In this document: positions 39,118 to 62,035 of the stretch, in pieces
Layout of the letters: every line of letters starts with the position of its first letter
Numbering within the stretch: the stretch's first letter is position 1
Source of the DNA: Escherichia coli
GTDB taxonomy: Bacteria > Pseudomonadota > Gammaproteobacteria > Enterobacterales > Enterobacteriaceae
NCBI RefSeq assembly: GCF_024502345.1
Contig: NZ_JALDNN010000001.1
DNA length: 64,000 nucleotides
Reading direction: 5' to 3' (one strand)
Program-made: the position numbers and the translations under genes
Notes under the pieces: generated by a model
Database searches by the model: none
What the model was told of the DNA's origin: nothing
Seen by the model: only the letters and a program-made list of their open reading frames with translations

Positions 39118-39204
39118 GCCCGGATGGTGGAATCGGTAGACACAAGGGATTTAAAATCCCTCGGCGTTCGCGCTGTGTGGGTTCAAGTCCCACTCCGGGT
39201 ACCA
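39118..39204 (+). tRNA. leuZ: tRNA-Leu (UAA anticodon), class II tRNA with long variable arm; integration site of the downstream island
   Basis: GCCCGGATGGTGGAATCGGTAGACACAAGGGATTTAAAATCCCTCGGCGTTCGCGCTGTGTGGGTTCAAGTCCCACTCCGGGTACCA. Confidence 0.9.
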
Positions 39205-43282: not shown

Positions 43283-43583
43283 CCCGTTATGAACAGGAAG
43301 AAAGCGGGCGGCTTTGTAATCTACAGCATGTGGTGTGCATCACAGCATGGAGATGATGTCTCTTTTTCCTGGCTGTTCGCATAAACAAGTGCAGACACGG
43401 GGGATCTCAGATCCCTCGTGATTTTTGCCCCCTATGGTGCATTCTTCTGTAGCAGGGTGATAACGGTTAATCCATTACCCCAACGACAGTATTACACCGG
43501 TAATAAATGTTCATGAATACAGTTAGTTATGTGGGTTTTGAGGTGGGCTATGTCATCGTTGACGATAACTGAAGGTTTTACAG

Positions 43584-43811: not shown

Positions 43812-43892
43812 TCGAATCCATATCAATTCTATAAAATATGAAACTTAACGGGAGTAAATATACACTCCCGTTATAATGCAACCTTTTTTTAA

Positions 43893-44711: not shown

Positions 44712-44772
44712 GGTAACTCCATTTTTTAGCTTACAAAAATAGCACTCAATGAAAATTATATTATCCGTGTCA

Positions 44773-45675
44773 TTACGGGGCGTTACTTGGCTGGGTGTAA
44801 CGTTTCAGTGCGGATTGTATATCTTCAGCAAGTTGTTGACGGATTGAGGCCGGTTGTATTACTTCGACATCCGGTATCCAGTATTTCATTAAAGGCATTA
44901 TCTGATCTGTGTGTGTTACACGTGATATCACCAGTAAATCGCCAGACCGGGAAGTATGAATTATTTCCTGTCCTGGCAATAGATGACGGTGGGTAAACCA
45001 CGGAGCAACATGTGCGGAAACTGAAATAAGAACTTCGATAAGGTCTTCGCTATACCAGATACCATCTGTCTTTTCTATTTTTTCATTAATTTCGGGGATT
45101 ATCCTGAAAGAGATATTACTCATGCAAACGTCTTTGACAGATGAGATAACAAAGCTTTTTAATGTACTGTCATGGGCGGCAGCGAGATACCACAATCCGT
45201 TGTCATTAACCAGCCTGTATGGCTCAACAGCCCGAAACTCTTTATCTTTGTAATTAAAATTTACTTTCTTCTGTGACAGGATGGCATCGGATAATACATT
45301 CAGAATTGACATGAATGATCCGCAGTTTTCGTATGGACGTTGTTTTATCAGAAACGGGTTGTTTTTCGTGTTACCTAACAAAATACTCAGTAGTCTGTCA
45401 TCCCAGCGAGGGAACAGCCCTTCAATACCCAGGATGCGCGTGAAATGACGTAAATCAGCATTGCTGCGTTGACCGAGAACACCGTCAGACAGGCGATAGC
45501 GACCATTTTGTCGAATCAGATTAAGATAGGACAGGCGCTGAGTAAGATCACGACGGATAGTTTTTTCGCAAACGTTAAATTCCTCAGATAACTCCCGGAC
45601 GGCTAGTGACTCACCATTGTTCAGGCGAGTTAATATCAATCCGAGTCGATATCCAAGTTTATCGTGCTTACCCAT
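44773..45675 (-). CDS. HTH + WYL-domain transcriptional regulator (BrxR/CapW-like, defence-island regulator family)
   Basis: 300-aa ORF; N-terminal DeoR-like HTH ([22 protein letters not shown]), central WYL-type segment ([10 protein letters not shown]). Confidence 0.65.
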
Positions 45676-45723
45676 TCGTTTATCCGGTTAATGCCAGCGA
45701 AGAGGATATTTTCAGCAAAGTAA

Positions 45724-45836
45724 CGGACAGGATGAGTCCACTTTTACTGTGACGGAGAAAAAAATTAACTCATTAATTATCAATATATTAAAACATTGCT
45801 GGAATCATCGAATAACATGTGGACTCATCCTGTCCA
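45724..45836. promoter_or_regulatory. Perfect 17-bp inverted repeat pair upstream of the WYL regulator gene (candidate operator)
   Basis: GGACAGGATGAGTCCAC at 45724-45740 and its exact reverse complement at 45820-45836. Confidence 0.45.
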
Positions 45837-46054
45837 TGTGTATTTTTACGTTCAGGGTGATAATTATTATCCTGACCTGTACATGACATGTTTTTGCTGC
45901 ATATTTGACCATGCACTTTTGCCATCAAGTCGGAGAGGCAGGGGGGAACGTAAGATCCGAAGGTTAGAGAGGTTATCAGCAATTACAATGATGATTAATA
46001 TTTTCATAATATCGGAGAACATCATATTAGTTGAAATAACATAAAGGTGGTTCT

Positions 46055-46381
46055 ATGTATTTACATATCAGAAAGTATCAACTCGTAAATGCGAGATGGC
46101 GTGATGTCATTGATCTGACAGATTATGAAGAAACAATCAGGCAGGTTGTCGGTACATTATTTGGAAATGATTTTATTGAGGTCAGCGTTGAAACAAATTG
46201 TTTTACTCTGACAGTAAACAGTACAAGCAGTAAAATACCACACGGCATACTGGTGAATATGGGGAAAAGGCTGGCGGCTAATCTCCAGAGTATCACCTGT
46301 CATGCCATGCGGATCTATCATGTAAATGGCCATCCTGACGCGCGGCAGTTATTTCACTGTTTTGATGCCGATTGCCTGTGA
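46055..46381 (+). CDS. Hypothetical protein
   Basis: 108-aa ORF convergent with the piPolB gene; weak support. Confidence 0.3.
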   Translation: MYLHIRKYQLVNARWRDVIDLTDYEETIRQVVGTLFGNDFIEVSVETNCFTLTVNSTSSKIPHGILVNMGKRLAANLQSITCHAMRIYHVNGHPDARQLFHCFDADCL

Positions 46382-46429
46382 TTAAGCCCCCAACTTCTGT
46401 TAAAGGAGTTGGGGGAGATTTAACGGTTA

Positions 46430-49093: not shown

Positions 49094-49715
49094 TTACTAC
49101 AGATTTGAAAATATCGGTTTTGTGTGATTCATCATCTACATGGATAAAGGAAACGAGTTTCCTGCCTGCTTTAATCAGGATACCGCGTTGCGTCTTTTCC
49201 ACAGACGGGGTAACGTGTGCAGATAACAGACAATGTTCATGTAAATGAAGAAACTTTTTTGAGGCGTAGCCGCCATGTAATCGGGCTTGAATGTCAAGAT
49301 ACATATCATCAAGAGAACCGGGTTCTCCTGATTCACTCAATACCGGATAACCCTTCTTATCAAAGAGGTTAAGGATAGATTTACTATCATGTTCGAACAG
49401 GGTAACACCGTAAATGTATTTCATTCGAAAGGTGAGGGAATCGGTGGTGTAGACCTCCTCCTGACGATTGAAATTTTTGAGACGCCTGGCTAATTCATTA
49501 AAAACAGCACGAGCAGTAGCCGTGTCCTGCAGGGTGTAGGTATAAAGTACGAAGCCATCTGTGCCGATGAGCTTTACTAAGTTGTCCATAATCGTGATAG
49601 CGAGAACTAATGCAAAGGACAGATATTTTTCATCGTTGTCTACAGCTGTGTTTGCTGCTTCAGGAAGAATGTTCAGTGCATTATTAGCATTATTTGCTGT
49701 GTTCTTAGTAACCAT
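49077..49715 (-). CDS. Hypothetical protein, overlapping and probably translationally coupled to piPolB
   Basis: 212-aa ORF; stop overlaps the piPolB start; start overlaps the alpA-like stop. Confidence 0.5.
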   Translation of the reverse strand: MVTKNTANNANNALNILPEAANTAVDNDEKYLSFALVLAITIMDNLVKLIGTDGFVLYTYTLQDTATARAVFNELARRLKNFNRQEEVYTTDSLTFRMKYIYGVTLFEHDSKSILNLFDKKGYPVLSESGEPGSLDDMYLDIQARLHGGYASKKFLHLHEHCLLSAHVTPSVEKTQRGILIKAGRKLVSFIHVDDESHKTDIFKSVVNVIKS

Positions 49716-49905
49716 TTATATCACCTTTAAGTTTGTTTTGACGATGTGCATTTTCCCACTCAACAATATCATCAAGAGAGAATCGTATAGCCCGCCCAAT
49801 TCTGATGAAGGGCGGGAGTTTTCCTGGGTTGCGCGATATATCTGACGCAACCGTGGATGCGGAAAGATTAAATCTTTCTGCAAACTGCTTAATGGTTAAA
49901 TACAT
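49705..49905 (-). CDS. AlpA-family HTH protein (excisionase / transcriptional regulator)
   Basis: 66-aa ORF, MYLTIKQFAERFNLSASTV...; typical partner of integrases in islands. Confidence 0.65.
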   Translation of the reverse strand: MYLTIKQFAERFNLSASTVASDISRNPGKLPPFIRIGRAIRFSLDDIVEWENAHRQNKLKGDINGY

Positions 49906-50055
49906 AAACCTCCGGTTTTAGAGAAGAAGAAACCACGCGGATTTAATATCAATCCACATTCTTTGATGACTTAATGCAGGGCCCTGCAGAAGCATGCAAT
50001 GACAATACCGTCCTTAAACGAGTGTTGCATCAATCACGAATCACAGATCATAGGT

Positions 50056-51186
50056 TCATTTTTTCGTGTCATAACTTTCTATGACCTGAGAAACCACTGC
50101 GTGCGATGTCGCTGCATTGTGAAAAGCGTAGCGACGGGTCGCCGTGAGTGAATGGTGATTTAGCAGATGGGAAGCGATTGCAATATCCCCGGTCGCCTGT
50201 AGTACCCGGGTGGCAAAGGTACGGCGCAGGTCATGCATCCGCAGGTTATCAATGTTGGCATCCCGACAAATACGGGCAAAGGTTGCACGCGGATATGCCA
50301 GAGGGCGGGCATTGTCGGTTAGTTGTGGAAAAATGTAAGTTTTGCTGAGCATCAGGTCTTGCTGGCACTGGACAACTGCAATGGCTGGAGGTGCAAGTGG
50401 GCAGGTGAAAGGGTGTCCGGACTTTGTATCAGGCAGTATGAGTTGATGCATATCCGGGTGCCAGTACTCCCATTTCAGGGTACATACCTCACCAATACGC
50501 ATCCCCGTATAAAGAGCAAGCAATATAGAATCAGCTGCCGGTGTTTGCAGCGCTGTTGCCGCGTCAATAAAGCGCGGGATTTCTGTCGCTGATAGTGTGC
50601 GATAGCGAATGTTATTTTCTTTCAGATAGCGGACATGTGACATCGGGGAATGTGTGATCCATCCAGCACGTACTGCCAGAGAGCATATTTTGGACAATAT
50701 TGCGAGGATACGGTTTACTGTTGACGGACGTAATTTTTCCCGTAAGCCAGCAGCATATTGTTCTAGTTCCCCTGCCGTGATGTCGCGAAGTTGCCGCTTG
50801 CCCCAGAACGGGCGAACGTAGAGGTTGAGTTTTGACAACTCTGACTGAGGACTCTTTTTATACAACTGCAAATCCGGTAGCCACAGGTCATTGATGGCCT
50901 GTTCCACAGTGAATCGACGGGACTGAACCGCAAGACGATTTTTATCAGCAAGCAGTTTCATCACATGCTGACGGGCATCCTCAACGCAGAGCTGAGGGAA
51001 CTGACCCAGGGTTTCATATATACGCTGATTGTTTATAGTGGCACGAAAGGCCAGCGTGATCCGATTGGGATACACCAGAGCACGCAGGTTTTGGCAGTGA
51101 ATATCACGGTATTCCTGACAACCCGTGAGGGGATGTGGAAGTTGGTGAAGTGATTTGTTGCTGAAACGCAGATCCAGAATAGGCAT
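50056..51186 (-). CDS. Second tyrosine recombinase (XerC/D-like integrase)
   Basis: C-terminal catalytic motifs HDLRRTFATR, LLNHH, TATRRYAF. Confidence 0.8.
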   Translation of the reverse strand: MPILDLRFSNKSLHQLPHPLTGCQEYRDIHCQNLRALVYPNRITLAFRATINNQRIYETLGQFPQLCVEDARQHVMKLLADKNRLAVQSRRFTVEQAINDLWLPDLQLYKKSPQSELSKLNLYVRPFWGKRQLRDITAGELEQYAAGLREKLRPSTVNRILAILSKICSLAVRAGWITHSPMSHVRYLKENNIRYRTLSATEIPRFIDAATALQTPAADSILLALYTGMRIGEVCTLKWEYWHPDMHQLILPDTKSGHPFTCPLAPPAIAVVQCQQDLMLSKTYIFPQLTDNARPLAYPRATFARICRDANIDNLRMHDLRRTFATRVLQATGDIAIASHLLNHHSLTATRRYAFHNAATSHAVVSQVIESYDTKK

Positions 51187-51329
51187 CGTATTTCTCCTGT
51201 AAATGACACTGGAAAAATACGATGTGAGGTTATAGTCTGCCAGTTACAGCTTTCACAGTTCATCAGGTGAAAAAACGCAGATTCGGATATAATGGCAACA
51301 CAATTCCATGTCGCCATTATATTAAGAAA

Positions 51330-52460
51330 CTACAGTTTCATGATCTTGTTCGCTATTTTTTCGAAGTAAACCTCATTCTTAAGAAGAGTGATATTGTTTG
51401 TTTGAACACCCAGACCACTGGAGGTTGACTGGAAGTTGAGTGAACCACTTATCACTGTGGACTTTCCTGATAAAAATGAAATCAACTCCTTGGAAGATGG
51501 TGCCCACTCAGGGTTTAAGAGTAATGCAATATAGATATATGTCTTACGAAGCAATTGTTCTATATCTTTTTTATGCCCTGTAGTGTTTTGCTTACCTTTA
51601 ATGCAAATAGATTTGATTATGAACTCATCAGGGCTGGTTAAAGGCGTTTTAAACTCACTCAGTGATCCATCGTTATGAATGACTTCATAAGGCAGCATAG
51701 ATAAAATGATCAATGCAATCATTTTAGGATGATAAAGGTAGTTATCACGAATGATTTTTCCTGCCTTCATTGTATTGAGCGTTGTTTGAATAAATACAAA
51801 AAGATATTCAGAGCAAAAGTAACAAAACACAAGCCAGGATAGGTCAATGGATGGAATGTTAATATCCTTAGGTAGTTTGTTTAGCCAGTATTCAGACTTC
51901 AAAAAGGTCCTGATTTCAACAGTATATTCATGCATTTTTGCGCTGAAATCAAGCATTGCTACTTGACCTGATTGTTCCGTAACTGTGTGGTCTATAAATG
52001 TTAGTGTATTGCACATTTTATCCAGCGTGTTTTGAAAACAAGAAAGGAGTTCGGCATTATTATTACCATTAACCGCAGATGAAAGTTCAGTTTTAATAAA
52101 TGCATCCAGTAGCATACAGATTTCTTTCGGAATGACATTTTTACGGGATTGCTGTGAATAGAAATGTACTGCCAGTAAATTAAAGGCAGTGCACTCCTTT
52201 TTTAACCATTGTTCGAGCACTGGGACGTGCTGAAAAAAATTGATATGCTTAGCAGTAGATGCTGATGGAGATAGTACATGAAGAATATCTACAGCAGGCT
52301 TCATTTGCAATATTTGATCGGATTCGGTAGTCGTCATTAGTTCCAGTAATTGCTGTTCAGAAAATAGTTTAGACAGGTGATCAATGTCTTTTTGGTATTG
52401 ATTAAGTTTTGTTAAATTCCCCGGTATACGGGTTACATTGTTTTTCATTTTCTCGAACAT
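51330..52460 (-). CDS. Hypothetical protein (AT-rich gene, no recognisable motifs)
   Basis: 376-aa ORF, Lys/Asn/Ile-rich; long uninterrupted frame in a strongly AT-rich stretch. Confidence 0.5.
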   Translation of the reverse strand: MFEKMKNNVTRIPGNLTKLNQYQKDIDHLSKLFSEQQLLELMTTTESDQILQMKPAVDILHVLSPSASTAKHINFFQHVPVLEQWLKKECTAFNLLAVHFYSQQSRKNVIPKEICMLLDAFIKTELSSAVNGNNNAELLSCFQNTLDKMCNTLTFIDHTVTEQSGQVAMLDFSAKMHEYTVEIRTFLKSEYWLNKLPKDINIPSIDLSWLVFCYFCSEYLFVFIQTTLNTMKAGKIIRDNYLYHPKMIALIILSMLPYEVIHNDGSLSEFKTPLTSPDEFIIKSICIKGKQNTTGHKKDIEQLLRKTYIYIALLLNPEWAPSSKELISFLSGKSTVISGSLNFQSTSSGLGVQTNNITLLKNEVYFEKIANKIMKL

Positions 52461-52966
52461 AATTTTATCCTCGTTTGAATTATTACACTGATTTAAAAAG
52501 TAGCATGTCGTGTTAGCGAGGTAATCCTAAAACGTGAATGGCAGCAGGGGCAAGCTTGAATCTGCGTAAGGATATGGCTTGAATTTAATGGTGTAATCAG
52601 TGAGTTAGAGGCTTATAGCCATTTAAATACAATAAGTTATGATAATATATGGCGGGTGTAAATCGGTTAGTTTTTATGGTTAAAATATGAGCATTGTGAG
52701 ATTTGAGATATGATGGTTTTTAAATTACATACAAGTTACCCCTGATGATCAGTATTAATACCAGAATGATACATGCGAGCAGCACCCAATCCTGTACTAT
52801 TTATGATGGCTATACAAGGCTGAAACTTTGAGTCGTATGTTGCCAGGAGGATTAATGTCCACAAGGCCCAGATAGAATGATTTCTCAGATATTAAAGTTG
52901 AAACTTATTAACTATGTGAGAGGCTGATATTTATTCAGTCTCTCATTTGTTTTTATCGTTTTAAAG

Positions 52967-54202
52967 TTAAAAGGAAATAAATAATGCCTTCCGCCGATGA
53001 ATCAGTGTACTGATTTCTCGAAAATCAGCCTCAATACTACCAACATCACCAAAGACTTCACCACTAATCTCTCTTCGATTTTTCATGAAATTGGTGCTTA
53101 ATAAGCTTTCTTTTTTTAGTGTCACTAATTTTGGTTTTATATCGTTATAGAAATGCTTACGGCTTACCCTGATGCTATGAATCGAGTAGTAAACTGTTTT
53201 ATACATCAAAAATATAAGTAACTGGCCGAGAAGATATTCTTTTTCAATGTATTTATATTGAGAGGATTTTTCGCGTTTCGCCAGGTAGAAAACATGAGGT
53301 GCGATGATGGTGGGGATGAAATCCAGTGCTGGAGAGGTTTTGGTTTTTTCTGTTTCTCTTCCGGATTGAAGATGTTGAAGTACAGAGTATACAATGCTTA
53401 AAATTATGGCGTTACTTATATTATTAATTGCAGTTGGGTAAATATGCAGATTGCTTATCAATTCTGAAAGGCAAAGTAAAACACCAGTGATGTTGGGTTT
53501 TCTGCCGGAGATTGTGGTGCTGTTGAAAATGTGACGATTCTTACGACTTATATTGACAAGTTTATGAGTGCAGAACTCTATATGTTCGACGATTTTATCT
53601 TGACTATTTTTAATGTATTTTGAAATGTTAGTGATCCGGCCATTCAACGTTAGTTCATCAAGCAATATATCATTTTTAATATTGCGAATTTCATCGCAAT
53701 GTTCACATTGAGAAACTATCTCATGTAATACATAACTCGACGTATTGCGGGGTGACGCTGATATGTAATCTAAAATAGAAGGCTCGATTTTGATTTTTTG
53801 TTTGTATTTTTTAATGCACTGTTTGATTGTTTTTTGTAGAGTATTTGAGATGTGTTTTTTATATTCTTTTAGAAAATCTTGCTCTAAAAAGAGTGAGGAG
53901 AAGATCAACTGCTGGCGAGATAATTTAATCTCAGGCTTGATCAATTTAATCCGAAAAACTCTTCCCTCCAACTCATAGCTGAACATGGAAGATAAGTCAT
54001 AGTGGGGTGATAAATGTTCGAGTAACGACATTCGTGTATTCATTAGCCGCTTGAATTTATGGTCAGCATACATAAGTGTTTTTTTTATTTGCTCATCATA
54101 AAGTGGGCCGATAGCGCAGTTGGCAATACTCATTCTATCCGGAGACCTCCAGTCAGCAGGGGAATCACATTGACGGTCATCATTACTATCAAAGGGCATC
54201 AA
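52967..54202 (-). CDS. Hypothetical protein (AT-rich gene, no recognisable motifs)
   Basis: 411-aa ORF, similar composition to the preceding gene; divergent from hsdM. Confidence 0.5.
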   Translation of the reverse strand: MMPFDSNDDRQCDSPADWRSPDRMSIANCAIGPLYDEQIKKTLMYADHKFKRLMNTRMSLLEHLSPHYDLSSMFSYELEGRVFRIKLIKPEIKLSRQQLIFSSLFLEQDFLKEYKKHISNTLQKTIKQCIKKYKQKIKIEPSILDYISASPRNTSSYVLHEIVSQCEHCDEIRNIKNDILLDELTLNGRITNISKYIKNSQDKIVEHIEFCTHKLVNISRKNRHIFNSTTISGRKPNITGVLLCLSELISNLHIYPTAINNISNAIILSIVYSVLQHLQSGRETEKTKTSPALDFIPTIIAPHVFYLAKREKSSQYKYIEKEYLLGQLLIFLMYKTVYYSIHSIRVSRKHFYNDIKPKLVTLKKESLLSTNFMKNRREISGEVFGDVGSIEADFREISTLIHRRKALFISF

Positions 54203-54505
54203 CGTTGCCGATTATGGATCATGTCAGCTCCACACACCAGAACGGGTGATATATGGATCATCATTACCCCAACGGCAGTTTTACACCATGGCTAATATGG
54301 ATGCTATCTTACTAAGATAATTGGTTTTTAGCGAGTGACGAGCCCGGTTGTGTCAGTCTGTCTCATGTCGATATTACGGGGATGATGCAAACCTGAATGC
54401 TGCGATATTGGCGTGTCAGGGGAGGCATCTTACGGTATCATTTACCGCAATTTTTAAGATGCAAAGCCCTGCATCGCTAGCTTTTTCTTCAGACCAGGAT
54501 GATTC

Positions 54506-56029
54506 ATGAACGACAAAATCAGTCAGGACACGATCAACAAAGCCCTGTGGGCCGCGTGTGATACGTTCCGTGGCACCATCAGTGCTGATACCTATAAAGA
54601 CTTTATCCTTACCATGCTATTCCTTAAGTACATTTCGGATGTCTGGCAGGATCACTACGACGAATATAAAGTGCAATATGGTGATGAGCCGGAACTGATT
54701 GAAGCGATGATGGCGAACGAGCGCTTCGTGTTGCCGAAAAGCGCCAGTTTCTATGCGTTGTACGAGCGACGTCATGAGCCGGGCAACGGTGAGCGTATCG
54801 ATCAGGCGCTGCATGCGATTGAAGAAGCCAACGGCACCAAACTGAAAGATGCCGGGAAAAGTGTCTTCCAGGATATTTCGTTTAACACTGACCGTCTGGG
54901 CGAAGAAAAACAGAAGAACACCATCCTGCGTCAGTTGCTGGAAGACTTTGCCGGTGAAGATCTTAACCTGAAGCCAAGCCGTGTCGGTACGCTGGACGTT
55001 ATCGGTAATGCTTACGAATATCTGATCAAAAACTTTGCTGCCAGCGGTGGGCAGAAAGCCGGGGAATTCTATACCCCACCGGAAGTTTCGGATCTCATCG
55101 CTGAACTGCTTGATCCTCAACCCGGTGATACAATCTGCGACCCGGCCTGTGGTTCCGGTTCGTTGCTAATGAAGTGCGGGCGTAAAATTGTCTCAGGACA
55201 TGATAGCCGCAACTATGCGTTGTTCGGTCAGGAAGCGATTGGCTCCACGTGGTCGCTGGCGAAAATGAACATGTTCCTGCACGGCGAAGATAACCACAAA
55301 ATCGAGTGGGGCGATACCATTCGTAACCCGAAGTTGTTGGATAAAAACGGCGACCTGATGCTGTTTGATATCGTGACCGCAAACCCACCGTTCAGCCTGG
55401 ATAAGTGGGGCCATGACGAGGCCGAGAATGATAAGTTTGGGCGTTTCCGTCGCGGTGTACCGCCGAAGACTAAAGGGGATTACGCCTTTATCTCGCATAT
55501 GATCGAAACCCTGAAACCGGGAACGGGTCGTATGGGCGTAGTGGTGCCGCACGGTGTGCTGTTCCGTGGCTCCAGCGAAGGCAAAATTCGTCAGAAGCTG
55601 ATTGATGAAAACCTACTCGATGCGGTGATTGGCCTGCCTGAAAAACTGTTCTACGGTACGGGTATTCCTGCTGCAATTCTGATTTTTAAAAAGCAGAAAG
55701 TGGATGACAAGGTGCTGTTTATCGACGCCAGCCGTGAATTTAAGGCAGGTAAAAACCAGAACCAGCTCAGCGCAGAAAACATCGAGAAAATCGTCAAGAC
55801 CTACCGTGATGGCGATAGCGTCGAGAAATATGCCTACCTTGCCAGCCTGAAGGAGATTCAGGACAACGATTACAACCTCAATATTCCGCGCTATGTCGAT
55901 ACCTTTGAAGAAGAAGAAGATATCGATTTACTTGCCGTTCGTGCTGAGCGGGAGGAATTGAAAGCGGAACTGGCGAAATTGGAAACGCAGATGGCGGGTT
56001 ATCTGGAGGAGCTGGGTTATGGTGCCTAA
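54506..56029 (+). CDS. hsdM: Type I restriction-modification system methyltransferase subunit HsdM
   Basis: 507-aa ORF; SAM-binding motif DPACGSGSLL and catalytic NPPF (TANPPFSLDKW). Confidence 0.9.
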   Translation: MNDKISQDTINKALWAACDTFRGTISADTYKDFILTMLFLKYISDVWQDHYDEYKVQYGDEPELIEAMMANERFVLPKSASFYALYERRHEPGNGERIDQALHAIEEANGTKLKDAGKSVFQDISFNTDRLGEEKQKNTILRQLLEDFAGEDLNLKPSRVGTLDVIGNAYEYLIKNFAASGGQKAGEFYTPPEVSDLIAELLDPQPGDTICDPACGSGSLLMKCGRKIVSGHDSRNYALFGQEAIGSTWSLAKMNMFLHGEDNHKIEWGDTIRNPKLLDKNGDLMLFDIVTANPPFSLDKWGHDEAENDKFGRFRRGVPPKTKGDYAFISHMIETLKPGTGRMGVVVPHGVLFRGSSEGKIRQKLIDENLLDAVIGLPEKLFYGTGIPAAILIFKKQKVDDKVLFIDASREFKAGKNQNQLSAENIEKIVKTYRDGDSVEKYAYLASLKEIQDNDYNLNIPRYVDTFEEEEDIDLLAVRAEREELKAELAKLETQMAGYLEELGYGA

Positions 56030-57266
56030 GGGGTGGAAACGAGTACCGATTAAGGATGTGTGCGAGTCTATAATCGATTGCGTAAATAAAACAGCTCCAG
56101 TTGTTGATTATGAAACTCCCTTTAAGATGATTCGTACCACGAATGTACGTAATGGAAGGGTTAATACTGAAGACGTCAGATATGTGACTGAAGACACTTA
56201 CCTGCAATGGGTTCGACGCGGAAAACCGCAAGTAGGTGATATCATCTTTACACGTGAAGCACCTGTAGGAGAAGCAGGTGTCCTGCAAGATGCTGAAGGT
56301 ATTTTCCTCGGGCAAAGAACGATGATGTATCGAGCTGATACCTGCCTTTCAGATAACTATTTCTTGTTCTACTCGTTATCAAGTCCCTTCTGCCAGAAAC
56401 AAATTGAAGATTTTAGCAATGGCGGTACTGTAGCTCATATGAGAGTTCCAGATTGCGGTGAGATATTGATCAATCTACCGCCTTTCCTCGAACAAAAGAA
56501 AATCGCCCAAATCCTGTCAACCTGGGATAAGGCGATTTCGGTGACGGAAAAGCTTCTCACCAACAGCCAGCAGCAGAAAAAAGCCCTGATGCAGCAATTG
56601 CTTACTGGGAAGAAACGCTTGCTGGATGAGAATGGGACAAGGTTTTCTGAAACTTGGAAATTATATGCCTTATCGAAATTATTTCAGAGAGTTACGACTA
56701 AAAACAATGGAAAAAGCAACAATGTTGTAACCATTTCTGGACAACATGGTTTGATTAAACAGGAAGACTTTTTCAAGAAAACAGTCGCATCAGATACCCT
56801 TGATGGTTATTTCTTATTAAAAAAAGGGCAGTTTGCTTACAATAAAAGTTACTCTAATGGTTATCCGATGGGTGCAATAAAAAGATTAAATCGATATCCA
56901 GAGGGAGTAGTAACAACTCTGTATATATGTTTTGAACTTACTACACCCAAAAAATCATGTGGTGACTATTGGGAGCATTATTTTGAGTCAGGGCTTTTGA
57001 ATAACAGTTTGTCTCAAATTGCTCATGAAGGTGGACGGGCTCATGGCTTGCTAAATGTAAAACCTTCGGACTTCTTTTCATTAAAAGTTGCGGTTCCTGG
57101 CTTTGAAGAGCAACAAAAAATCGCATTAGTTCTGTCCGCTGCCGACACCGAAATCTCCACACTGGAGAAAAAACTCGCCTGCCTGAAAGACGAGAAGAAA
57201 GCCTTGATGCAGCAACTGCTGACCGGGAAACGTCGGGTGAAAGTGGATGAGGCGGTTGCCGTATGA
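56019..57266 (+). CDS. hsdS: Type I restriction-modification system specificity subunit HsdS
   Basis: 415-aa ORF with two target-recognition domains separated by conserved repeats (KKALMQQLLTGKKRLL and KKALMQQLLTGKRRVK); overlaps the hsdM end. Confidence 0.85.
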   Translation: MVPKGWKRVPIKDVCESIIDCVNKTAPVVDYETPFKMIRTTNVRNGRVNTEDVRYVTEDTYLQWVRRGKPQVGDIIFTREAPVGEAGVLQDAEGIFLGQRTMMYRADTCLSDNYFLFYSLSSPFCQKQIEDFSNGGTVAHMRVPDCGEILINLPPFLEQKKIAQILSTWDKAISVTEKLLTNSQQQKKALMQQLLTGKKRLLDENGTRFSETWKLYALSKLFQRVTTKNNGKSNNVVTISGQHGLIKQEDFFKKTVASDTLDGYFLLKKGQFAYNKSYSNGYPMGAIKRLNRYPEGVVTTLYICFELTTPKKSCGDYWEHYFESGLLNNSLSQIAHEGGRAHGLLNVKPSDFFSLKVAVPGFEEQQKIALVLSAADTEISTLEKKLACLKDEKKALMQQLLTGKRRVKVDEAVAV

Positions 57267-57946
57267 AACTGACGAAAAGCGGTCCACTGACTGACCGGGA
57301 AATCGACTGGCTGGAAGAAATATTAATGAAGTATGGAATGGATGATTCTGTACTCTGTTTCTCTGAGCTGGATGGATTGCTGACGGCGATTTTATCAGGT
57401 CCAAATATGGTTTCACCCAATATCTGGCTGAGTGCTATTTGGGGAGGAGGCGATTATCATCCGAAATGGTCATCTGAGAGAGAGATGGAGCGTTTTGTCA
57501 GTCTGTGTTTTCAGCATATGAACGATATCGCTGGTTGCCTTTATGACGCCCCTGAACTGTTTGAGCCGATTTTCAATGAGCGTGAGGTAAAGGGGGAAAA
57601 ATATACCATTGTGGAAGAGTGGTGTTTTGGTTATATGAAAGGAAAGTCACTGGATGACTGGTCTGGTCTTCCCGGTGAGTTACGGCCTTCTCTGGAAGTG
57701 ATCGCTCTTCATGGCGTGGAGAAGAATTTTCCTGTACTTGAGAAAATGACCGGAGAGCAGTTTGAGAAAAGTATTTCCCTTATTCAGCCTGCTGCACTGG
57801 CACTTTATCAGTACTGGTTGTCAGTGAGAATGTCAGAGGCATCATCCCGGCCTGTTCCAGTGAAGGGGGCAGAAAACATGCCCGGGCGAAATGACCCGTG
57901 TCCGTGTGGCAGCGGTAAAAAATTTAAGAAGTGCTGTCTGCATTGA
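57263..57946 (+). CDS. YecA-like (UPF0149) protein with C-terminal SEC-C zinc motif, embedded in the Type I R-M operon
   Basis: 227-aa ORF; C-terminal GRNDPCPCGSGKKFKKCCLH; start overlaps the hsdS stop (ATGA). Confidence 0.8.
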   Translation: MKLTKSGPLTDREIDWLEEILMKYGMDDSVLCFSELDGLLTAILSGPNMVSPNIWLSAIWGGGDYHPKWSSEREMERFVSLCFQHMNDIAGCLYDAPELFEPIFNEREVKGEKYTIVEEWCFGYMKGKSLDDWSGLPGELRPSLEVIALHGVEKNFPVLEKMTGEQFEKSISLIQPAALALYQYWLSVRMSEASSRPVPVKGAENMPGRNDPCPCGSGKKFKKCCLH

Positions 57947-57995
57947 TGAATCTTCATGTGACCAGTAGCGAGTAGCGCCAGAAAGAAAAGGATTA

Positions 57996-60900
57996 ATGAT
58001 GAACCAGACGTACACGCCAAAATTCCAGGAAGAATACAGCGCCAAAATTCCGGCACTGACGTTACTGACCAGCCTCGGCTGGACGTTTTTATCTCCGAAA
58101 CAGATTATGGATTACCGGGGCTATAAACAGGATGAGGTGGTGCTGCGTCCGGTTCTGCGTGAAGAGCTGTCGAAGCGTTCCTTTATGGCGGGTGGCAAAA
58201 CCTGCCAGTTATCGGAAAAAGCACTGGATAACCTGATATCACAGGTCTGTTCTCCGGCGCTGAATGAAGGGCTGCTCAAAGCCAATGAACGGATGTATAA
58301 CCATCTGCTCTACGGTATCGCCGTCACGGAGTTTGTCGATGGCAAGAAGGTCAACCCCACCATTGCGCTGATCGACTGGGAACATCCGGAAAATAACCAG
58401 TTCCACTTTACTGAAGAATTTACGGTATTGCGGTCAGGTGGTGTTGAAACCCGGAGGCCAGATATTGTCTGCTTTGTTAATGGTATCCCGCTGGCTGTTA
58501 TTGAAGCGAAAAGCCCGGCTGGTCATGGCAAGAAAGGGCCAACCATTGACGAGGGGATATCCCAGAGTATCCGCAACCAGTTCAACGATGAAATCCCGCA
58601 GCTGTTTGTCTACAGCCAGTTATTACTTTCGATTAACGGTCATGACGGGCGCTACGGTACATGCCATACGCCAATGAAATTCTGGGCGGCATGGCGCGAA
58701 GAAGATATTACCGATGCGCAGATGTATGCTCTGCGCAACCATCCTTTATCGACTGAACAAATTCATGCGTTGTTTGATCATCGTCCATCAGCCGATCTCA
58801 ACTGGTACCAACAGTTAATCGCCGCCGGTGAACTGGCTGTCAGTGGACAGGACAAACTGCTCATCAGCCTGCTTTCGCCGGAACGTCTGCTGGAGATGAC
58901 CCGCTTCTTCACTCTGTTTGATAAAAAGACCGGGAAAATTGTCGCCCGCTATCAGCAGGTGTTCGGTATTAAAAGACTGCTGGAGCGCATCAGTACCCGC
59001 AGACCCGATGGGGGCAGGGAAGGTGGTGTTATCTGGCATACCACCGGCTCTGGCAAATCGTACACCATGGTGTTCCTCAGCAAGGCGCTGATTCTTCATG
59101 ACAGCCTGAAGCGGTGTCGTATCGTGGTGGTGACGGACCGTATCGATCTTGAAGAACAGCTCAGCAGTACCTTTGCATCCGGCGGCGAGTTGGCCGGGAA
59201 AAAAGACAAAGCCAATGCAATGGCGACATCCGGGCAGATGCTGGCGAAACAGATTGGCTCCGGTAAAGAACGCATCATTTTCACCCTAATCCAGAAATTT
59301 AATTCAGCGACAAAACTTCCTGAATGCGTCAATACCAGCCCCGATATCATCGTTCTGGTTGATGAAGGACACCGTAGCCAGGGTGGTGAGAACCATGTGC
59401 GAATGAAACTGGCACTGCCGAACGCCGCCTTTGTGGCATTTACTGGTACGCCATTGCTAAAAGAAGATAAGACCACCAATAAATTCGGACCGATTGTCCA
59501 CGCTTATACCATGCAGCGAGCGGTAGAAGATAAAGCCGTTACACCTTTGCTGTATGAAGAACGTATTCCCGACCTTGAGGTTAACGATCGGGCAATAGAT
59601 GCCTGGTTTGATCGTATTACCGATGGGTTAAGCGAAGCGCAAAAAGCCGACCTGAAGCGTAAATATGCCCGTAAAGGTGAGGTTTATAGTGCAGATGATC
59701 GCATCCGTCTGATCGCACTCGATATCGCCACGCACTTCTCGAAGAATATTGATGAGGGACTGAAAGGCCAGCTTGCCTGCGACAGCAAGATTTCCGCCAT
59801 CAAATATAAAAAGTATCTTGATGAAGCCGGGTTGTTTGAGTCAGCTGTAGTTATCAGCCCGCCGGATACCCGGGAAGGGAATACCGAAGTGGATGAAAGC
59901 AAACTGCCGGAAGTGACGAAATGGTGGAAGGATAATGTCGGCACGCAGGATGAGTCTGTGTATACCCGTAATGTCATCAGTCGTTTCGATACCGATGAGA
60001 AGCTCAAATTGCTGATAGTCGTTGATAAACTGCTCACCGGGTTTGATGAGCCGAAGAATACCGTGCTGTATATCGACAAGCCGCTTAAGTCCCACAACCT
60101 TATCCAGGCGATTGCGCGGGTGAACCGACTGCATCCACTAAAAAAGTTCGGTCTGCTGATTGATTATCGCGGTATTCTGGCTGAGCTGGACACGACTATC
60201 GGCAAATATCAGGACCTCGCCTCCCGAACTCAGGGCGGATACGATATCAAAGATATTGACGGGCTGTACAGCGCCATGAGCTCTGAATACAAGCGCCTGC
60301 CGCATCTGTATAACCAGCTGTGGGCCATATTTGCCGGTGTTAAAAACAAAAATGATACTGAGCAGTTACGTGCGGTACTGGTGCCTAAAATGGAAGAACG
60401 TGACGGAGAGATGGTCGATATCCATCAGAAAACCCGTGATGATTTCTTCGAGGCGTTAACGGCCTTTGCCGGATGCCTGAAAGTGGCACTGCAGTCCGCT
60501 ACCTTCTTCACCGACAAGAGCTTTACGGAACAAGACCGAAATCTCTATAAAGAAACCGTAAAACAGATGTCCAGCCTGCGCCAGTGGGCGATGCAGGTAA
60601 GTGGAGAGCAGGTCAATTATGACGACTACGCTGAGCAGGTGAAAAAACTGCTGGATAAGCATGTCACCGGCGTTGAAGTTCGTGAACCGGATGGCGTGTA
60701 TGAAGTCGGTAAAATGGGCAAGAGCGAAAAGCCCGAAGAGTGGGACAACAATAAAACCCGCAATGAAACCGACATCATTAAAACCCGTGTGACAAAGATG
60801 ATTGAGCAGGAATTGCGTGATGACCCGTATGCTCAGGAGGCATTTTCAAAACTCCTGCGTATGGCTATCGAAGAGGCTGAAAAACTGTTTGACCATCCGC

Positions 60901-61283
60901 TGAAACAGTACCTTTTGTTCCGTGAATTTGAAGAACAGGTTGAAGCCCGTAAGCTCAGCGATATCCCGGATGCACTGGCGGTAAACAAGCATGCTCAGGC
61001 GTATTACGGTGTATTTAAAAAAGAGCTACCTGAGGTTTTTGCGGTAAACGACGTTCAGGTGCAGGATAAGTGGACGAAGCTGGCTTTTGAAGTGGACAAC
61101 ATTATCGTCAAAGCGGTGGCAGAAAACTCCCTGAACCCCCAGGACATTGAGAAAGTCGTTAAGACAAGTCTGCTACCACTGCTGTTTACGGCCTGCCGGG
61201 AAATTGGTGCCGGAATGAATCAGGTTAACCGTATTGTTGAAACCATCATCCAGATACTGCGCGTTGGTTTGATGAAATCATGA
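57996..61283 (+). CDS. hsdR: Type I restriction-modification system endonuclease/helicase subunit HsdR
   Basis: 1095-aa ORF; Walker A TGSGKS, DEAH-type motif VLVDEGHRSQ, helicase C region. Confidence 0.9.
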   Translation: MMNQTYTPKFQEEYSAKIPALTLLTSLGWTFLSPKQIMDYRGYKQDEVVLRPVLREELSKRSFMAGGKTCQLSEKALDNLISQVCSPALNEGLLKANERMYNHLLYGIAVTEFVDGKKVNPTIALIDWEHPENNQFHFTEEFTVLRSGGVETRRPDIVCFVNGIPLAVIEAKSPAGHGKKGPTIDEGISQSIRNQFNDEIPQLFVYSQLLLSINGHDGRYGTCHTPMKFWAAWREEDITDAQMYALRNHPLSTEQIHALFDHRPSADLNWYQQLIAAGELAVSGQDKLLISLLSPERLLEMTRFFTLFDKKTGKIVARYQQVFGIKRLLERISTRRPDGGREGGVIWHTTGSGKSYTMVFLSKALILHDSLKRCRIVVVTDRIDLEEQLSSTFASGGELAGKKDKANAMATSGQMLAKQIGSGKERIIFTLIQKFNSATKLPECVNTSPDIIVLVDEGHRSQGGENHVRMKLALPNAAFVAFTGTPLLKEDKTTNKFGPIVHAYTMQRAVEDKAVTPLLYEERIPDLEVNDRAIDAWFDRITDGLSEAQKADLKRKYARKGEVYSADDRIRLIALDIATHFSKNIDEGLKGQLACDSKISAIKYKKYLDEAGLFESAVVISPPDTREGNTEVDESKLPEVTKWWKDNVGTQDESVYTRNVISRFDTDEKLKLLIVVDKLLTGFDEPKNTVLYIDKPLKSHNLIQAIARVNRLHPLKKFGLLIDYRGILAELDTTIGKYQDLASRTQGGYDIKDIDGLYSAMSSEYKRLPHLYNQLWAIFAGVKNKNDTEQLRAVLVPKMEERDGEMVDIHQKTRDDFFEALTAFAGCLKVALQSATFFTDKSFTEQDRNLYKETVKQMSSLRQWAMQVSGEQVNYDDYAEQVKKLLDKHVTGVEVREPDGVYEVGKMGKSEKPEEWDNNKTRNETDIIKTRVTKMIEQELRDDPYAQEAFSKLLRMAIEEAEKLFDHPLKQYLLFREFEEQVEARKLSDIPDALAVNKHAQAYYGVFKKELPEVFAVNDVQVQDKWTKLAFEVDNIIVKAVAENSLNPQDIEKVVKTSLLPLLFTACREIGAGMNQVNRIVETIIQILRVGLMKS

Positions 61284-62035
61284 GTGAAAAAGAATCGCCA
61301 TCAATGAAAGCGTTACGCATTGTCTATGGTGATGAGGTCATCGTCGTACAGTGTGTTCCGCGTCAGGTCGTAAAGGGCAGGGTGCTCATTAAGGTTTATC
61401 CGGACTGCCGGGTTGTGGCCTCTGTACCGCCTGAAACACCGGAGCACGAGGTATTGTCTGCGCTGAAAAAACGTGGGCGCTGGATATACCAGCAACTGCG
61501 TGATTTCAGGGAGCAACAGATACACATTGTTCCGCGTCAGTATGTCAGCGGAGAAAGCCATTATTATCTCGGTAAGCAATATCAGTTGAAAGTGACAGAA
61601 GACGCTACTGTGCCGCAACGAGTGAAAATGTTGCGTGGACGTCTGGAAGTGACTGTCAGACACAAATCGGCAGAAAAGATTAAAGCCTTGCTGGCTGAAT
61701 GGTATCGGGAACGTGCCAGAGATGTTTTTCAGCGCAGGCTTGATTTACTGATTCCGCAGACCCTTTGGGTCAGTGAGCGTCCTCCGATACGTCTGCGGGC
61801 GATGCAAACGCAATGGGGCAACTGTTCAGCAAAAGGCTGTCTGACCCTGAATCCATGGCTGGTTAAGGCATCTTCAGAATGTATCGATTATGTTTTGCTA
61901 CATGAGTTATGCCATGTGGCTGAGCACAACCACAGCGAGGAGTTTTACCGTCTGATGGGACAGGTTATGCCGGGCTGGGAAAAGGTTAAGAAGCGACTGG
62001 ATGGTATGGCTGGGATGTTGTTGGCAGATATGTAA
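61280..62035 (+). CDS. YgjP-like (DUF45 / M48 family) zinc metallopeptidase, coupled to hsdR
   Basis: 251-aa ORF with HExxH motif (LLHELCHVAEHNH); start overlaps the hsdR stop (ATGA). Confidence 0.75.
   Translation: MSEKESPSMKALRIVYGDEVIVVQCVPRQVVKGRVLIKVYPDCRVVASVPPETPEHEVLSALKKRGRWIYQQLRDFREQQIHIVPRQYVSGESHYYLGKQYQLKVTEDATVPQRVKMLRGRLEVTVRHKSAEKIKALLAEWYRERARDVFQRRLDLLIPQTLWVSERPPIRLRAMQTQWGNCSAKGCLTLNPWLVKASSECIDYVLLHELCHVAEHNHSEEFYRLMGQVMPGWEKVKKRLDGMAGMLLADM

What the first reader, a model, noticed from the sequence alone, without database searches (positions are those of the whole stretch)
57263..57946. YecA-like SEC-C-motif protein located between hsdS and hsdR
In E. coli K-12, as I recall, yecA is the chromosomal gene directly after leuZ. 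Here a yecA-like ORF with the characteristic C-terminal zinc motif sits inside the Type I R-M operon, translationally coupled to hsdS. Either the island captured a host-gene paralogue, or this family has an unrecognised role with Type I systems, such as assembly, regulation, or restriction alleviation.
Basis: partly seen in the sequence, partly recalled or inferred. Interest (0 to 1): 0.5.

Follow-up and report, generated by a model that had tools for sequence, protein, structure and literature searches.

The report
YecA chaperone paralogue inside restriction operon
A diverged, horizontally mobile copy of the bacterial chaperone gene yecA sits as an optional extra gene inside a Type I restriction-modification operon; the association is real and widespread, but it is already listed as an untested phage-defence candidate (PADLOC PDC-S12) and its function is still unknown.

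Summary
Window 57263-57946(+) is an intact 227-aa YecA-family gene (UPF0149 domain plus SEC-C tail). Its ATG overlaps the hsdS stop codon (ATGA), and hsdR starts about 50 nt downstream.

It is not the host yecA. It is 57% identical to chromosomal YecA, which in a strain carrying the identical gene lies intact about 9 kb further on, at the end of the leuZ island (a pipolin).

The embedded copies form their own 227-aa clade (74-100% identity). That clade sits directly after hsdS in 417 of 5426 complete E. coli genomes, on about 346 plasmids (mostly Klebsiella) and in 8 other species. All 72 chromosomal orthologues examined (50-59% identity) are not embedded.

The gene is optional. 51 E. coli genomes carry sister operons with near-identical hsdR in which hsdS joins hsdR through 21 nt, and four of six sampled are fully intact. 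It is under purifying selection (dN/dS 0.07-0.19).

PADLOC already lists it as PDC-S12, an untested "guilt-by-embedding" candidate, and that HMM scores housekeeping YecA higher.

The mechanism is inferred only: a non-enzymatic holdase/adaptor acting either on the operon's own subunits or on phage proteins. Verdict: real, conserved, already catalogued, function open. Moderate interest.

The parts
57263..57946 (+). yecA-like gene, 227 aa (embedded YecA/AscA paralogue; PADLOC PDC-S12)
   Evidence: ORF. NCBIfam NF007704 356.7 bits. Pfam UPF0149 + SEC-C. PADLOC PDLC04917 328.9 bits. 57% identity to chromosomal YecA. AF2 model pLDDT 94, matching only the solved UPF0149 structures 4gyt and 1izm.
57305..57817 (+). 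UPF0149 domain (residues 15-185), the presumed client-binding part
   Evidence: Pfam PF03695 E=5.9e-30. 72 positions conserved identically in the embedded and chromosomal clades, 6 conserved but different.
57887..57937 (+). SEC-C / SecA-like metal-binding motif (residues 209-225, GRNDPCPCGSGKKFKKCCLH)
   Evidence: Pfam PF02810 E=4.4e-10. Matches the SecA and YchJ metal-binding peptides in the PDB. Conserved in both clades.
57263..57266 (+). ATGA overlap of the yecA-like start codon with the hsdS stop codon (translational coupling)
   Evidence: Read from the sequence. A 4-nt or 1-nt start/stop overlap is kept in all embedded copies examined.
54506..56029 (+). hsdM (507 aa)
   Evidence: TIGR00497 283 bits. 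Closest solved relatives include M.EcoR124 rather than M.EcoKI.
56019..57266 (+). hsdS (415 aa); the variable specificity subunit
   Evidence: NCBIfam type I S subunit model. Only 36-70% identical between otherwise near-identical operons.
57947..57995 (+). yecA-like/hsdR intergenic spacer with the RBS; no terminator
   Evidence: Sequence. No + strand terminator-like site there, and promoter-like hits in the region are not above the shuffled expectation.
57996..61283 (+). hsdR (1095 aa; RefSeq annotation starts at the second ATG, 57999)
   Evidence: TIGR00348 461 bits. PADLOC REase_I 1375 bits.
61280..62035 (+). M48/YgjP-like metallopeptidase, start overlapping the hsdR stop; present in operons with and without yecA-like
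   Evidence: HELCH motif in the translation. RefSeq annotation and Pfam YgjP-like in homologous loci.
39118..39204 (+). tRNA-Leu (leuZ), attachment site of the island (a pipolin) that carries the operon
   Evidence: ARAGORN. Same layout pgsA-tRNAs-island-yecA-tyrP in strain SLK172. The pipolin paper names this site.

Best explanation
SHOWN. The ORF is an intact gene for a YecA-family protein: a UPF0149 domain plus a C-terminal SecA-like SEC-C metal-binding tail. It is not the host yecA. It is a horizontally mobile paralogue that forms its own 227-aa clade. It occupies the slot between hsdS and hsdR of one lineage of Type I R-M operons carried by pipolins, other islands and Klebsiella conjugative plasmids, and its start codon always overlaps the hsdS stop codon. 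It is optional: sister operons with near-identical hsdM/hsdR/M48 genes join hsdS to hsdR through 21 nt. It is kept under purifying selection.

INFERRED. Like YecA/AscA, it is a non-enzymatic adaptor/holdase. The metal-binding tail docks on ribosomes and SecB, and the UPF0149 domain holds a client protein. Three features point to the operon's own newly made subunits as the most likely client (the variable, recombination-shuffled HsdS, or HsdR). First, the protein is made from the same mRNA in step with HsdS. Second, it is never separated from hsdS, even when further genes are inserted before hsdR. Third, it has no effector domain. On this reading it tunes the assembly or timing of restriction, for example when the operon enters a new host, and does not kill phage by itself.

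My probabilities: identity as an embedded accessory paralogue about 0.95; dispensable for basic R-M about 0.8; this particular client/mechanism about 0.3.
For: Domain identity.

Paralogue, not the host gene: 57% identity to the chromosomal YecA that lies intact 9 kb downstream in strain SLK172. At the DNA level, chromosomal yecA matches only the last 76 nt.

Separate clade: the homologue list has an identity gap between 74-98% and 60% or less; NJ bootstrap for the embedded clade is 92%.

Context split: 8/8 species-representative loci at >=75% identity lie directly after hsdS; 72/72 loci at 50-59% do not, and most of those sit beside tyrP.

Prevalence: 417/5426 E. coli genomes, with all 12 sampled full-length hits overlapping 'subunit S'. 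About 346 plasmids at >=80% identity, mostly conjugative Klebsiella plasmids, again next to subunit S.

Conserved start/stop overlap with hsdS in every embedded copy, including those where a 594-641-aa gene separates it from hsdR.

Optional: 51 genomes have the direct hsdS-hsdR junction, and fully intact examples exist. yecA-less operons are interleaved with yecA+ ones in the hsdR tree.

Purifying selection: dN/dS 0.07-0.19, against 0.02-0.10 for hsdM/hsdR.

Family core and metal-binding tail retained: 91 positions conserved identically in both clades, only 8 conserved but different.

YecA/AscA binds SecB and ribosomes through the tail and suppresses aggregation in vitro (preprint 10.1101/2020.07.21.215244).

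No enzymatic or toxin domain found in Pfam, NCBIfam or PADLOC.
Against: There is no direct evidence for any client. Intact copies persist where the hsd genes have decayed or are absent: Providencia, Serratia ficaria, L018 and L099. That hints at a value independent of the R-M system. Operons without the gene look complete. A Yersinia lineage keeps an intact R-M operon while a frameshift destroys the SEC-C motif. Other UPF0149 proteins act on transcription factors or RNA polymerase rather than as assembly chaperones. The constant position after hsdS could simply reflect one ancestral insertion spread by recombination. That HsdS is aggregation-prone on its own is my background knowledge, not tested here.
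Confidence: 0.35

Rival explanations
1. A genuine anti-phage gene (PDC-S12) that acts on phage proteins. It would work as a chaperone-type sensor, decoy or 'guard' of the R-M system, binding a nascent phage protein at the ribosome (for example an anti-restriction protein or a capsid protein). The outcome would be either protection of the restriction enzyme or a block on phage development, by analogy with PrrC at the same operon position or with the SecB-like chaperones of toxin-antitoxin-chaperone systems.
For: The slot between hsdS and hsdR is where PrrC sits in EcoprrI (review PMC12707154). In variant operons the same slot also holds a GmrSD/HEC-06-type enzyme or a 600-aa cold-shock-domain protein. 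PADLOC selected the family by guilt-by-embedding, and six other embedded candidates from that study were validated. A SEC-C-motif protein (Rugutis) is a validated lactococcal antiphage gene. TAC systems with SecB-like chaperones defend against phage. Intact copies outlive the hsd genes. Its dN/dS is 2-5 times higher than that of hsdM/hsdR.
Against: There is no effector, toxin or nuclease domain and no partner gene unique to it. Only 8 clade-specific conserved substitutions separate it from housekeeping YecA. dN/dS is still well below 1, with no sign of an arms race. PDC-S12 is explicitly untested, and its HMM scores housekeeping YecA higher.
Confidence: 0.3
2. A transcription-level regulator of the operon. 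Like the UPF0149 proteins YgfB (which binds the antiterminator AlpA) and MtvS (which binds the RNA polymerase beta-prime subunit and controls a CRISPR-Cas locus), it would modulate read-through or expression of hsdR. That would make it comparable to the controller proteins of Type II systems.
For: There are UPF0149 precedents: PMC9998450 and bioRxiv 10.1101/2024.09.12.612765. The gene sits exactly between the modification genes and hsdR, with no separate hsdR promoter evident.
Against: It belongs to the YecA branch (with a SEC-C tail), not the YgfB branch. No terminator lies between it and hsdR. yecA-less operons express hsdR from a 21-nt junction. No DNA-binding domain is present.
Confidence: 0.1
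3. A passenger with no R-M-linked function. On this reading it is a captured host chaperone gene that hitch-hikes in a recombination-prone slot. It would be retained because an extra generic chaperone is mildly useful, or simply because it is tightly linked to a selected operon.
For: It is dispensable: 51 genomes lack it, and its presence is polyphyletic on the hsdR tree. A frameshifted tail is tolerated in Yersinia. It has very few clade-specific changes relative to housekeeping YecA. Distant YecA-family genes are also passengers of Tn3-family transposons on Xanthomonas and Pseudomonas plasmids.
Against: The reading frame stays intact under purifying selection across saturated synonymous divergence (dS>1-2) in many genera. 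The start/stop coupling to hsdS is always kept. It is present in about 77% of E. coli genomes that carry this hsdR lineage.
Confidence: 0.15
4. It is the original chromosomal yecA, with the R-M genes inserted around it.
For: yecA is the host gene next to leuZ, and the island is integrated at leuZ.
Against: The chromosomal yecA (221 aa, 57% identical) is present separately beyond the island in a strain with the identical embedded gene and in yecA-less islands. The embedded gene travels with the operon to other chromosomal sites and to plasmids.
Confidence: 0.01

Closest known systems
E. coli YecA (AscA), the housekeeping UPF0149 + SecA-like metal-binding-domain protein
   Same: Same two-domain architecture over the full length, 57% identity, NCBIfam equivalog score well above the cut-off, an identical CPCGSGKKFK-CC-H tail and the same predicted fold. 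The reported activities of YecA (binding SecB and ribosomes through the tail; holdase activity in vitro) are the basis for the inferred biochemistry.
   Different: It forms a separate 227-aa clade. It is mobile (islands, plasmids), lies after hsdS instead of between leuZ and tyrP, coexists with the host copy, and has 8 conserved clade-specific substitutions (T4, I14, C32, F33, S51, C92, N105, K126).
PADLOC-DB 'PDC-S12' (phage defence candidate, single gene; Payne et al., bioRxiv 10.1101/2024.01.29.577857)
   Same: This protein matches model PDLC04917 over its full length (328.9 bits). The PDC set was defined from genes embedded in Type I R-M, BREX and DISARM loci. Type I R-M plus PDC-S12 is reported as frequent pipolin cargo.
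   Different: PDC-S12 is an untested label, not a mechanism. Its HMM scores the housekeeping chromosomal YecA higher (365.9 bits), so it does not separate the embedded paralogue from ordinary yecA.
PrrC in the EcoprrI Type IC locus (and the Rlo 'restriction-linked ORFs')
   Same: An extra gene embedded in a Type I hsd locus, as PrrC is in ecoprrI. That PrrC lies specifically between hsdS and hsdR is my background knowledge.
   Different: PrrC is an ABC-ATPase/anticodon nuclease that is activated when the restriction enzyme is inhibited. The protein here has no ATPase or nuclease domain.
UPF0149 regulators YgfB (P. aeruginosa) and MtvS (Francisella)
   Same: The same UPF0149 fold used as a protein-protein interaction module. 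MtvS controls expression of a defence system, Type V-A CRISPR-Cas.
   Different: These are YgfB-branch proteins rather than YecA-branch. They are encoded at housekeeping loci and act on AlpA or on the RNA polymerase beta-prime subunit.
Chaperone- or SEC-C-containing antiphage systems: SecB-like chaperones of TAC systems (CmdTAC) and lactococcal Rugutis
   Same: They show that chaperones and SEC-C-motif proteins can take part in antiphage defence.
   Different: TAC systems have a toxin and an antitoxin next to the chaperone, and none is present here. Rugutis shares only about 20 residues of SEC-C motif, at its N-terminus.

Membership tests
YecA/AscA family (NCBIfam NF007704; Pfam UPF0149 + SEC-C) | N-terminal UPF0149 domain | tested here: met
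   Pfam PF03695, residues 15-185, E=5.9e-30. The AF2 model (pLDDT 94) matches only the UPF0149 structures 4gyt and 1izm.
YecA/AscA family (NCBIfam NF007704; Pfam UPF0149 + SEC-C) | C-terminal SecA-like metal-binding motif (C-x-C ... C-C/H) | tested here: met
   Pfam SEC-C E=4.4e-10. Aligns to the SecA and YchJ metal-binding peptides in the PDB. C213, C215 and C224 are invariant in a 70-sequence alignment.
YecA/AscA family (NCBIfam NF007704; Pfam UPF0149 + SEC-C) | Full-length score above the curated equivalog cut-off | tested here: met
   356.7 bits against a cut-off of 149, profile positions 2-221 of 221.
Chromosomal yecA orthologue (the host gene) | Conserved position leuZ-yecA-tyrP, and membership of the chromosomal clade | tested here: not met
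   It lies after hsdS, and the true yecA-tyrP pair is found elsewhere. It belongs to a separate clade with 92% bootstrap.
YecA/AscA family: biochemical activity | Binds SecB and ribosomes through the tail; holdase activity | not testable with these tools
   Reported only for E. coli YecA. Here it is inferred from conservation of the motif.
PADLOC PDC-S12 | Match to HMM PDLC04917 | tested here: met
   328.9 bits, full length. The model is not specific, however: housekeeping YecA scores 365.9 bits.
PADLOC PDC-S12 | Embedded within a Type I R-M / BREX / DISARM locus | tested here: met
   Between hsdS and hsdR here and in every embedded-clade locus that still has an intact operon.
PADLOC PDC-S12 | Confers phage resistance | not testable with these tools
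   The source paper calls the 145 PDCs untested. No paper with experimental data was found.
PrrC-type guard of Type I R-M | ABC-ATPase domain plus anticodon-nuclease domain | tested here: not met
   No such domain in Pfam, NCBIfam or PADLOC.
Obligatory Type I R-M subunit | Present in all operons of the lineage | tested here: not met
   51 E. coli genomes have hsdS-21 nt-hsdR. Four of the six sampled are fully intact.
Toxin-antitoxin-chaperone (TAC) system | Adjacent toxin and antitoxin genes; SecB-like chaperone | tested here: not met
   The neighbours are hsdS and hsdR. The protein is YecA-like, not SecB-like.

The most novel reading that the evidence does not exclude
The embedded YecA paralogue is a dedicated, ribosome-docked chaperone that links a Type I restriction enzyme to the translation/SecB machinery. 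It could work in one of two ways. As a 'capacitor', it would keep newly recombined HsdS variants (or nascent HsdR) assembly-competent and delay restriction when the operon enters a new host. As a guard, it would capture nascent phage anti-restriction proteins. Either would be the first chaperone-type accessory factor shown for a restriction-modification system.
Probability: 0.2. Interest if true: 0.7.

Novelty: already known. Interest (0 to 1): 0.35.

Why it matters
Type I R-M systems are regarded as self-sufficient three-subunit enzymes. Here a conserved chaperone-like accessory gene is present in about 8% of complete E. coli genomes and on hundreds of Klebsiella conjugative plasmids, some of them in NDM-producing strains such as PittNDM01. 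If it has a function, that points to an unexplored layer of control over assembly, establishment in new hosts, or resistance to phage anti-restriction. It is also a clean natural case of a host gene next to a tRNA integration site being captured and re-used by mobile defence islands. There is a practical point too. The PADLOC PDC-S12 model scores ordinary chromosomal yecA higher than the embedded paralogue, so published 'PDC-S12' counts probably include the housekeeping gene. A clade-specific model, or a context filter (directly after hsdS), is needed.

Tried and rejected
1. Relic of the hsdS 3' end. An initial MAFFT alignment suggested such a relic downstream of yecA-like, which would have shown insertion rather than deletion. 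Local alignments against shuffled controls were not significant (p=0.09-0.99), so the direction of the indel is unresolved. The hsdR tree shows only that presence/absence is polyphyletic.

2. Separate hsdR promoter inside the 3' end of yecA-like (TTGTCA-16-CATCAT at 57818-57845). Promoter-like hits in the region are no more frequent than in shuffles (9 found against 11.1 expected).

3. Fold search for a mechanistic clue. Only the two uncharacterised UPF0149 structures match, and no full-length YecA structure is found by sequence.

4. Literature linking YecA to Type I R-M. The hits were coincidental gene lists. The held supplements of the PDC paper contain nothing on PDC-S12.

5. Fusion proteins as 'Rosetta stones'. 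The 450-640-aa YecA fusions carry DUF6933 or low-complexity N-termini, not Hsd domains. P0274 is a TrpR-YecA chimera, probably an assembly artefact.

6. Phage-encoded YecA. The phage-database and PHROG hits are host yecA included at prophage record ends.

7. Donor lineage. The non-embedded 74% copy (L016/L099) is not the ancestral locus. It sits beside that organism's own chromosomal yecA (46% identity) with transposase remnants.

8. Link between loss of yecA-like and decay of the operon. The first examples suggested such a link, but an unbiased sample gave 4 of 6 intact.
Full report
OBSERVATION

The ORF at 57263-57946(+) exists exactly as described. It is 227 aa with an ATG start, and that start overlaps the TGA stop of the upstream 415-aa hsdS ORF in the sequence GTATGAAAC. 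It carries a UPF0149 domain (residues 15-185, E=5.9e-30) and a SEC-C motif (residues 209-225, E=4.4e-10). It scores 356.7 bits on the NCBIfam YecA equivalog model, whose cut-off is 149. The operon reads hsdM (54506-56029), hsdS (56019-57266), yecA-like, hsdR (57996-61283), and an M48/YgjP-like peptidase whose start overlaps the hsdR stop (61280-62035). A DUF262/GmrSD-like gene follows. No + strand terminator-like site lies between hsdS and hsdR, and promoter-like matches are not above the shuffled expectation.

GENOMIC SETTING

tRNA-Gly, tRNA-Cys and tRNA-Leu(taa) lie at 38902-39204. Everything to their right is an island with two recombinases and a family-B DNA polymerase at 46430-49093(-). 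This makes it an E. coli pipolin, integrated at the tRNA-Leu between pgsA and yecA that the pipolin literature describes.

In strain SLK172 the embedded gene is 100% identical at the DNA level to the window. There the genuine chromosomal yecA-tyrP pair lies intact about 9 kb beyond the embedded gene, at the far end of the island. The two proteins are 57% identical over their full length. At the DNA level, chromosomal yecA matches only the last 76 bases, which encode the SEC-C motif.

A DISTINCT, MOBILE CLADE

A search of 5.8 billion protein clusters shows a clean gap. About twenty clusters are 74-98% identical to the query and nearly all are 227 aa. Everything else is at or below 60% and consists of the chromosomal YecA of Enterobacterales. 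In a neighbour-joining tree the first group is monophyletic (92% of 200 bootstraps). Together with the Enterobacterales chromosomal YecAs it separates from more distant representatives. This fits capture of a host yecA by a mobile element. Because yecA is the gene flanking the leuZ attachment site, capture by imprecise excision is an attractive origin. That origin is inference only.

Context separates the two groups completely.
- In one genome per species, all 8 loci at >=75% identity have the gene directly after hsdS. The species are Franconibacter, a Klebsiella michiganensis plasmid contig, Intestinirhabdus, Enterobacter, two Buttiauxella, Morganella and Citrobacter freundii.
- All 72 loci at 50-59% identity are unembedded, and most lie next to tyrP.
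- Cluster members carry names from Pantoea, Yersinia, Serratia, Providencia, Klebsiella and Citrobacter. Such a patchy distribution is typical of horizontal transfer.
- In E. coli, 417 of 5426 complete genomes carry a full-length copy, and all 12 sampled copies overlap a gene annotated as 'restriction endonuclease subunit S'.
- The operon also sits at other chromosomal sites (near fdoGHI-yiiE; near ydeP).
- About 346 plasmids carry a copy at >=80% protein identity, chiefly conjugative Klebsiella plasmids such as PittNDM01 p2.
- In Morganella the upstream hsdM is only 42% identical to the window's. The association therefore extends to a more distant hsd lineage.

COUPLED TO hsdS BUT OPTIONAL

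Every embedded copy keeps the start/stop overlap with hsdS, either ATGA or TGATG. This holds even where another gene has been inserted between it and hsdR: a 594-620-aa protein with a weak cold-shock domain in one allele class, or a 641-aa GmrSD/HEC-06-like enzyme in Morganella and Providencia.

The gene is nevertheless not part of the minimal system. The 5' end of this hsdR lineage is found in 543 E. coli genomes, and 51 of them have hsdS joined to hsdR by 21 nt with no gene between. Of six such operons taken from even-step samples of the ranking, four are fully intact (MB06101, CV839-06, EC20-72C-1, S163-2) and two are cut by IS elements. On an hsdR tree the yecA-less operons are interleaved with yecA+ ones, while the deepest branch is entirely yecA+. 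Gain or loss has therefore happened repeatedly, probably by recombination in the flanking conserved sequence.

I could not determine the direction of the event. An apparent relic of the hsdS terminus downstream of the gene is not statistically supported.

SELECTION

Against the window allele, dN/dS for yecA-like is 0.07-0.19 in ten operons, including pairs with saturated synonymous divergence. hsdM gives 0.02-0.04 and hsdR 0.03-0.10. Synonymous distances differ strongly between neighbouring genes of the same pair of operons, so the operons are mosaics.

The protein is thus maintained by selection, though under somewhat looser constraint than the enzymes. Compared with 72 chromosomal YecAs, the embedded clade shares 91 identically conserved positions, including the whole metal-binding tail. 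Only 8 positions are conserved in both groups but different. The AF2 model is confident (pLDDT 94) and matches only the two solved UPF0149 structures. The biochemistry is therefore probably that of YecA.

Three further observations bear on function.
- Intact copies persist where the hsd genes have decayed: Providencia, Serratia ficaria and two metagenomic contigs. In one of these contigs the copy lies beside the host's own yecA-ftnA-yecR.
- Lineage comparisons involving these copies still give dN/dS of about 0.1.
- In a Yersinia lineage a one-base frameshift destroys the SEC-C motif while the R-M genes stay intact.

WHAT IS KNOWN

RefSeq already annotates the gene as 'YecA family protein'. PADLOC-DB v2 has a model named PDC-S12 that matches it over its full length (328.9 bits). 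The PDC set consists of 145 explicitly untested 'phage defence candidates' chosen because they are embedded in Type I R-M, BREX or DISARM loci. The pipolin study lists Type I R-M and PDC-S12 among the frequent, recently exchanged cargo.

I also found that the PDC-S12 model scores housekeeping E. coli YecA higher (365.9 bits). Genome surveys that report PDC-S12 probably count the ordinary chromosomal gene as well.

For YecA itself, a preprint reports three things: binding to SecB and to ribosomes through the metal-binding tail, promiscuous co-purification with other proteins, and suppression of citrate synthase aggregation. Other UPF0149 proteins bind an antiterminator (YgfB-AlpA) or the RNA polymerase beta-prime subunit (MtvS, which regulates a CRISPR-Cas locus). 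Precedents for chaperones or SEC-C proteins in defence are the SecB-like chaperones of TAC systems and lactococcal Rugutis. The precedent for a functionally coupled gene embedded in a Type I hsd locus is PrrC.

MECHANISM (INFERRED)

The protein has no catalytic or toxic domain. It keeps the YecA core and tail, it is made in step with HsdS from the same transcript, and it is dispensable. Three readings follow.

- Accessory holdase/adaptor for the operon's own subunits (about 0.3). My preferred reading. It would act on the variable HsdS, which differs by 30-64% between otherwise near-identical operons, or on HsdR. The effect would be to tune assembly or the timing of restriction, for example on entry into a new host.
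- Factor acting on phage proteins, as guard, decoy or sensor (about 0.3). This is nearly as likely. It is favoured by the persistence of intact copies after the hsd genes have been lost and by the nature of other genes found in the same slot.
- Transcriptional regulator (0.1) or plain passenger (0.15). Neither is excluded.

None of these can be settled without experiments. The decisive ones are listed under next steps.

VERDICT

The finding is accurate and the association is real, conserved and widespread. The gene is an already catalogued, already annotated family member identical to a RefSeq protein, and nothing in the sequence reveals a new mechanism. Novelty: already known, as an untested candidate. 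Interest is moderate (0.35), because a chaperone-type accessory of a restriction enzyme would be new biology if demonstrated and is easy to test.

Noticed in passing
window 39118-54300: The island carrying the operon is a pipolin. It has the tRNA-Leu attachment site (39118-39204), an integrase (40237-41484), a family-B DNA polymerase/piPolB (46430-49093, minus strand) and a second tyrosine recombinase (50056-51186, minus strand). 203 complete E. coli genomes hold >=80% of window 39000-62000.
   Followed up: partly
window 51330-52460(-) and 52967-54202(-): Two AT-rich ORFs (34-38% GC; 376 and 411 aa) lie between the recombinase and hsdM. They have no PADLOC hit and are annotated 'hypothetical' in RefSeq. 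They travel with the operon in several strains. They could be an unrecognised cargo or defence pair.
   Followed up: partly
window 61280-62035: An M48/YgjP-like (SprT-like) metallopeptidase gene overlaps the hsdR stop codon (ATGA). It is present in every operon variant, with or without yecA-like. Its role next to hsdR is unknown. It gives no NCBIfam or PADLOC hit.
   Followed up: partly
L002 9629-11491; L009 3801-5585; also L019, L020, L022-L024: One allele class of the operon carries an extra 594-620-aa gene between yecA-like and hsdR. It shows only a weak N-terminal cold-shock domain (Pfam E=2e-4) and has no PADLOC or PHROG hit. In the loci examined, this gene always accompanies the 79-86% yecA-like alleles.
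   Followed up: partly
L025 6789-8714; L004/L005 8789-10723: In Morganella and Providencia the slot after yecA-like holds a GmrSD/HEC-06-like Type IV restriction enzyme. The space between hsdS and hsdR therefore acts as a general landing site for defence cargo, always downstream of yecA-like.
   Followed up: partly
PADLOC model PDLC04917 (no window coordinate): The PDC-S12 HMM scores housekeeping chromosomal YecA (365.9 bits) above the embedded paralogue (328.9 bits). PADLOC 'PDC-S12' calls reported in genome surveys, for example the Klebsiella papers, probably include ordinary yecA.
   Followed up: yes
L106 7001-7714 (Yersinia): A one-base frameshift inside the SEC-C motif (CPCG|MVKNLKN...) gives a 237-aa product without the metal-binding tail. 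hsdM, hsdS, hsdR and the peptidase gene remain intact. The variant is seen on 16 contigs.
   Followed up: partly
L103 5001-5699; L104 4974-5687: Distant YecA-family genes (25-29% identity) lie immediately downstream of a Tn3-family transposase, next to a PIN/RHH toxin-antitoxin pair, on conjugative Xanthomonas and Pseudomonas plasmids. 113 Xanthomonas plasmids have hits. This looks like a second, independent recruitment of the family by mobile elements.
   Followed up: partly
phage records ON470596 and NC_049344; phrog_24700: Several 'phage' records begin with host yecA at bases 4-672. These are prophages at the leuZ site deposited together with the flanking host gene, and a PHROG family consists of YecA. 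This shows how readily yecA is swept into mobile-element boundaries at this site.
   Followed up: no
L099 3511-6649: One metagenomic Enterobacterales contig has an intact embedded-clade copy (74% identity) with no hsd genes. It lies 1.9 kb upstream of that organism's own chromosomal yecA (46% identity, 191 aa, no SEC-C hit), followed by ftnA-yecR. Transposase remnants sit upstream.
   Followed up: partly
window 54506-61283 versus L001: The operon is a recombination mosaic. Against strain SLK172, yecA-like is identical (dS=0), hsdR has dS=0.12, hsdM has dS=0.50 and HsdS is only 70% identical. No complete E. coli genome has an hsdM more than 96.4% identical to the window's.
   Followed up: partly
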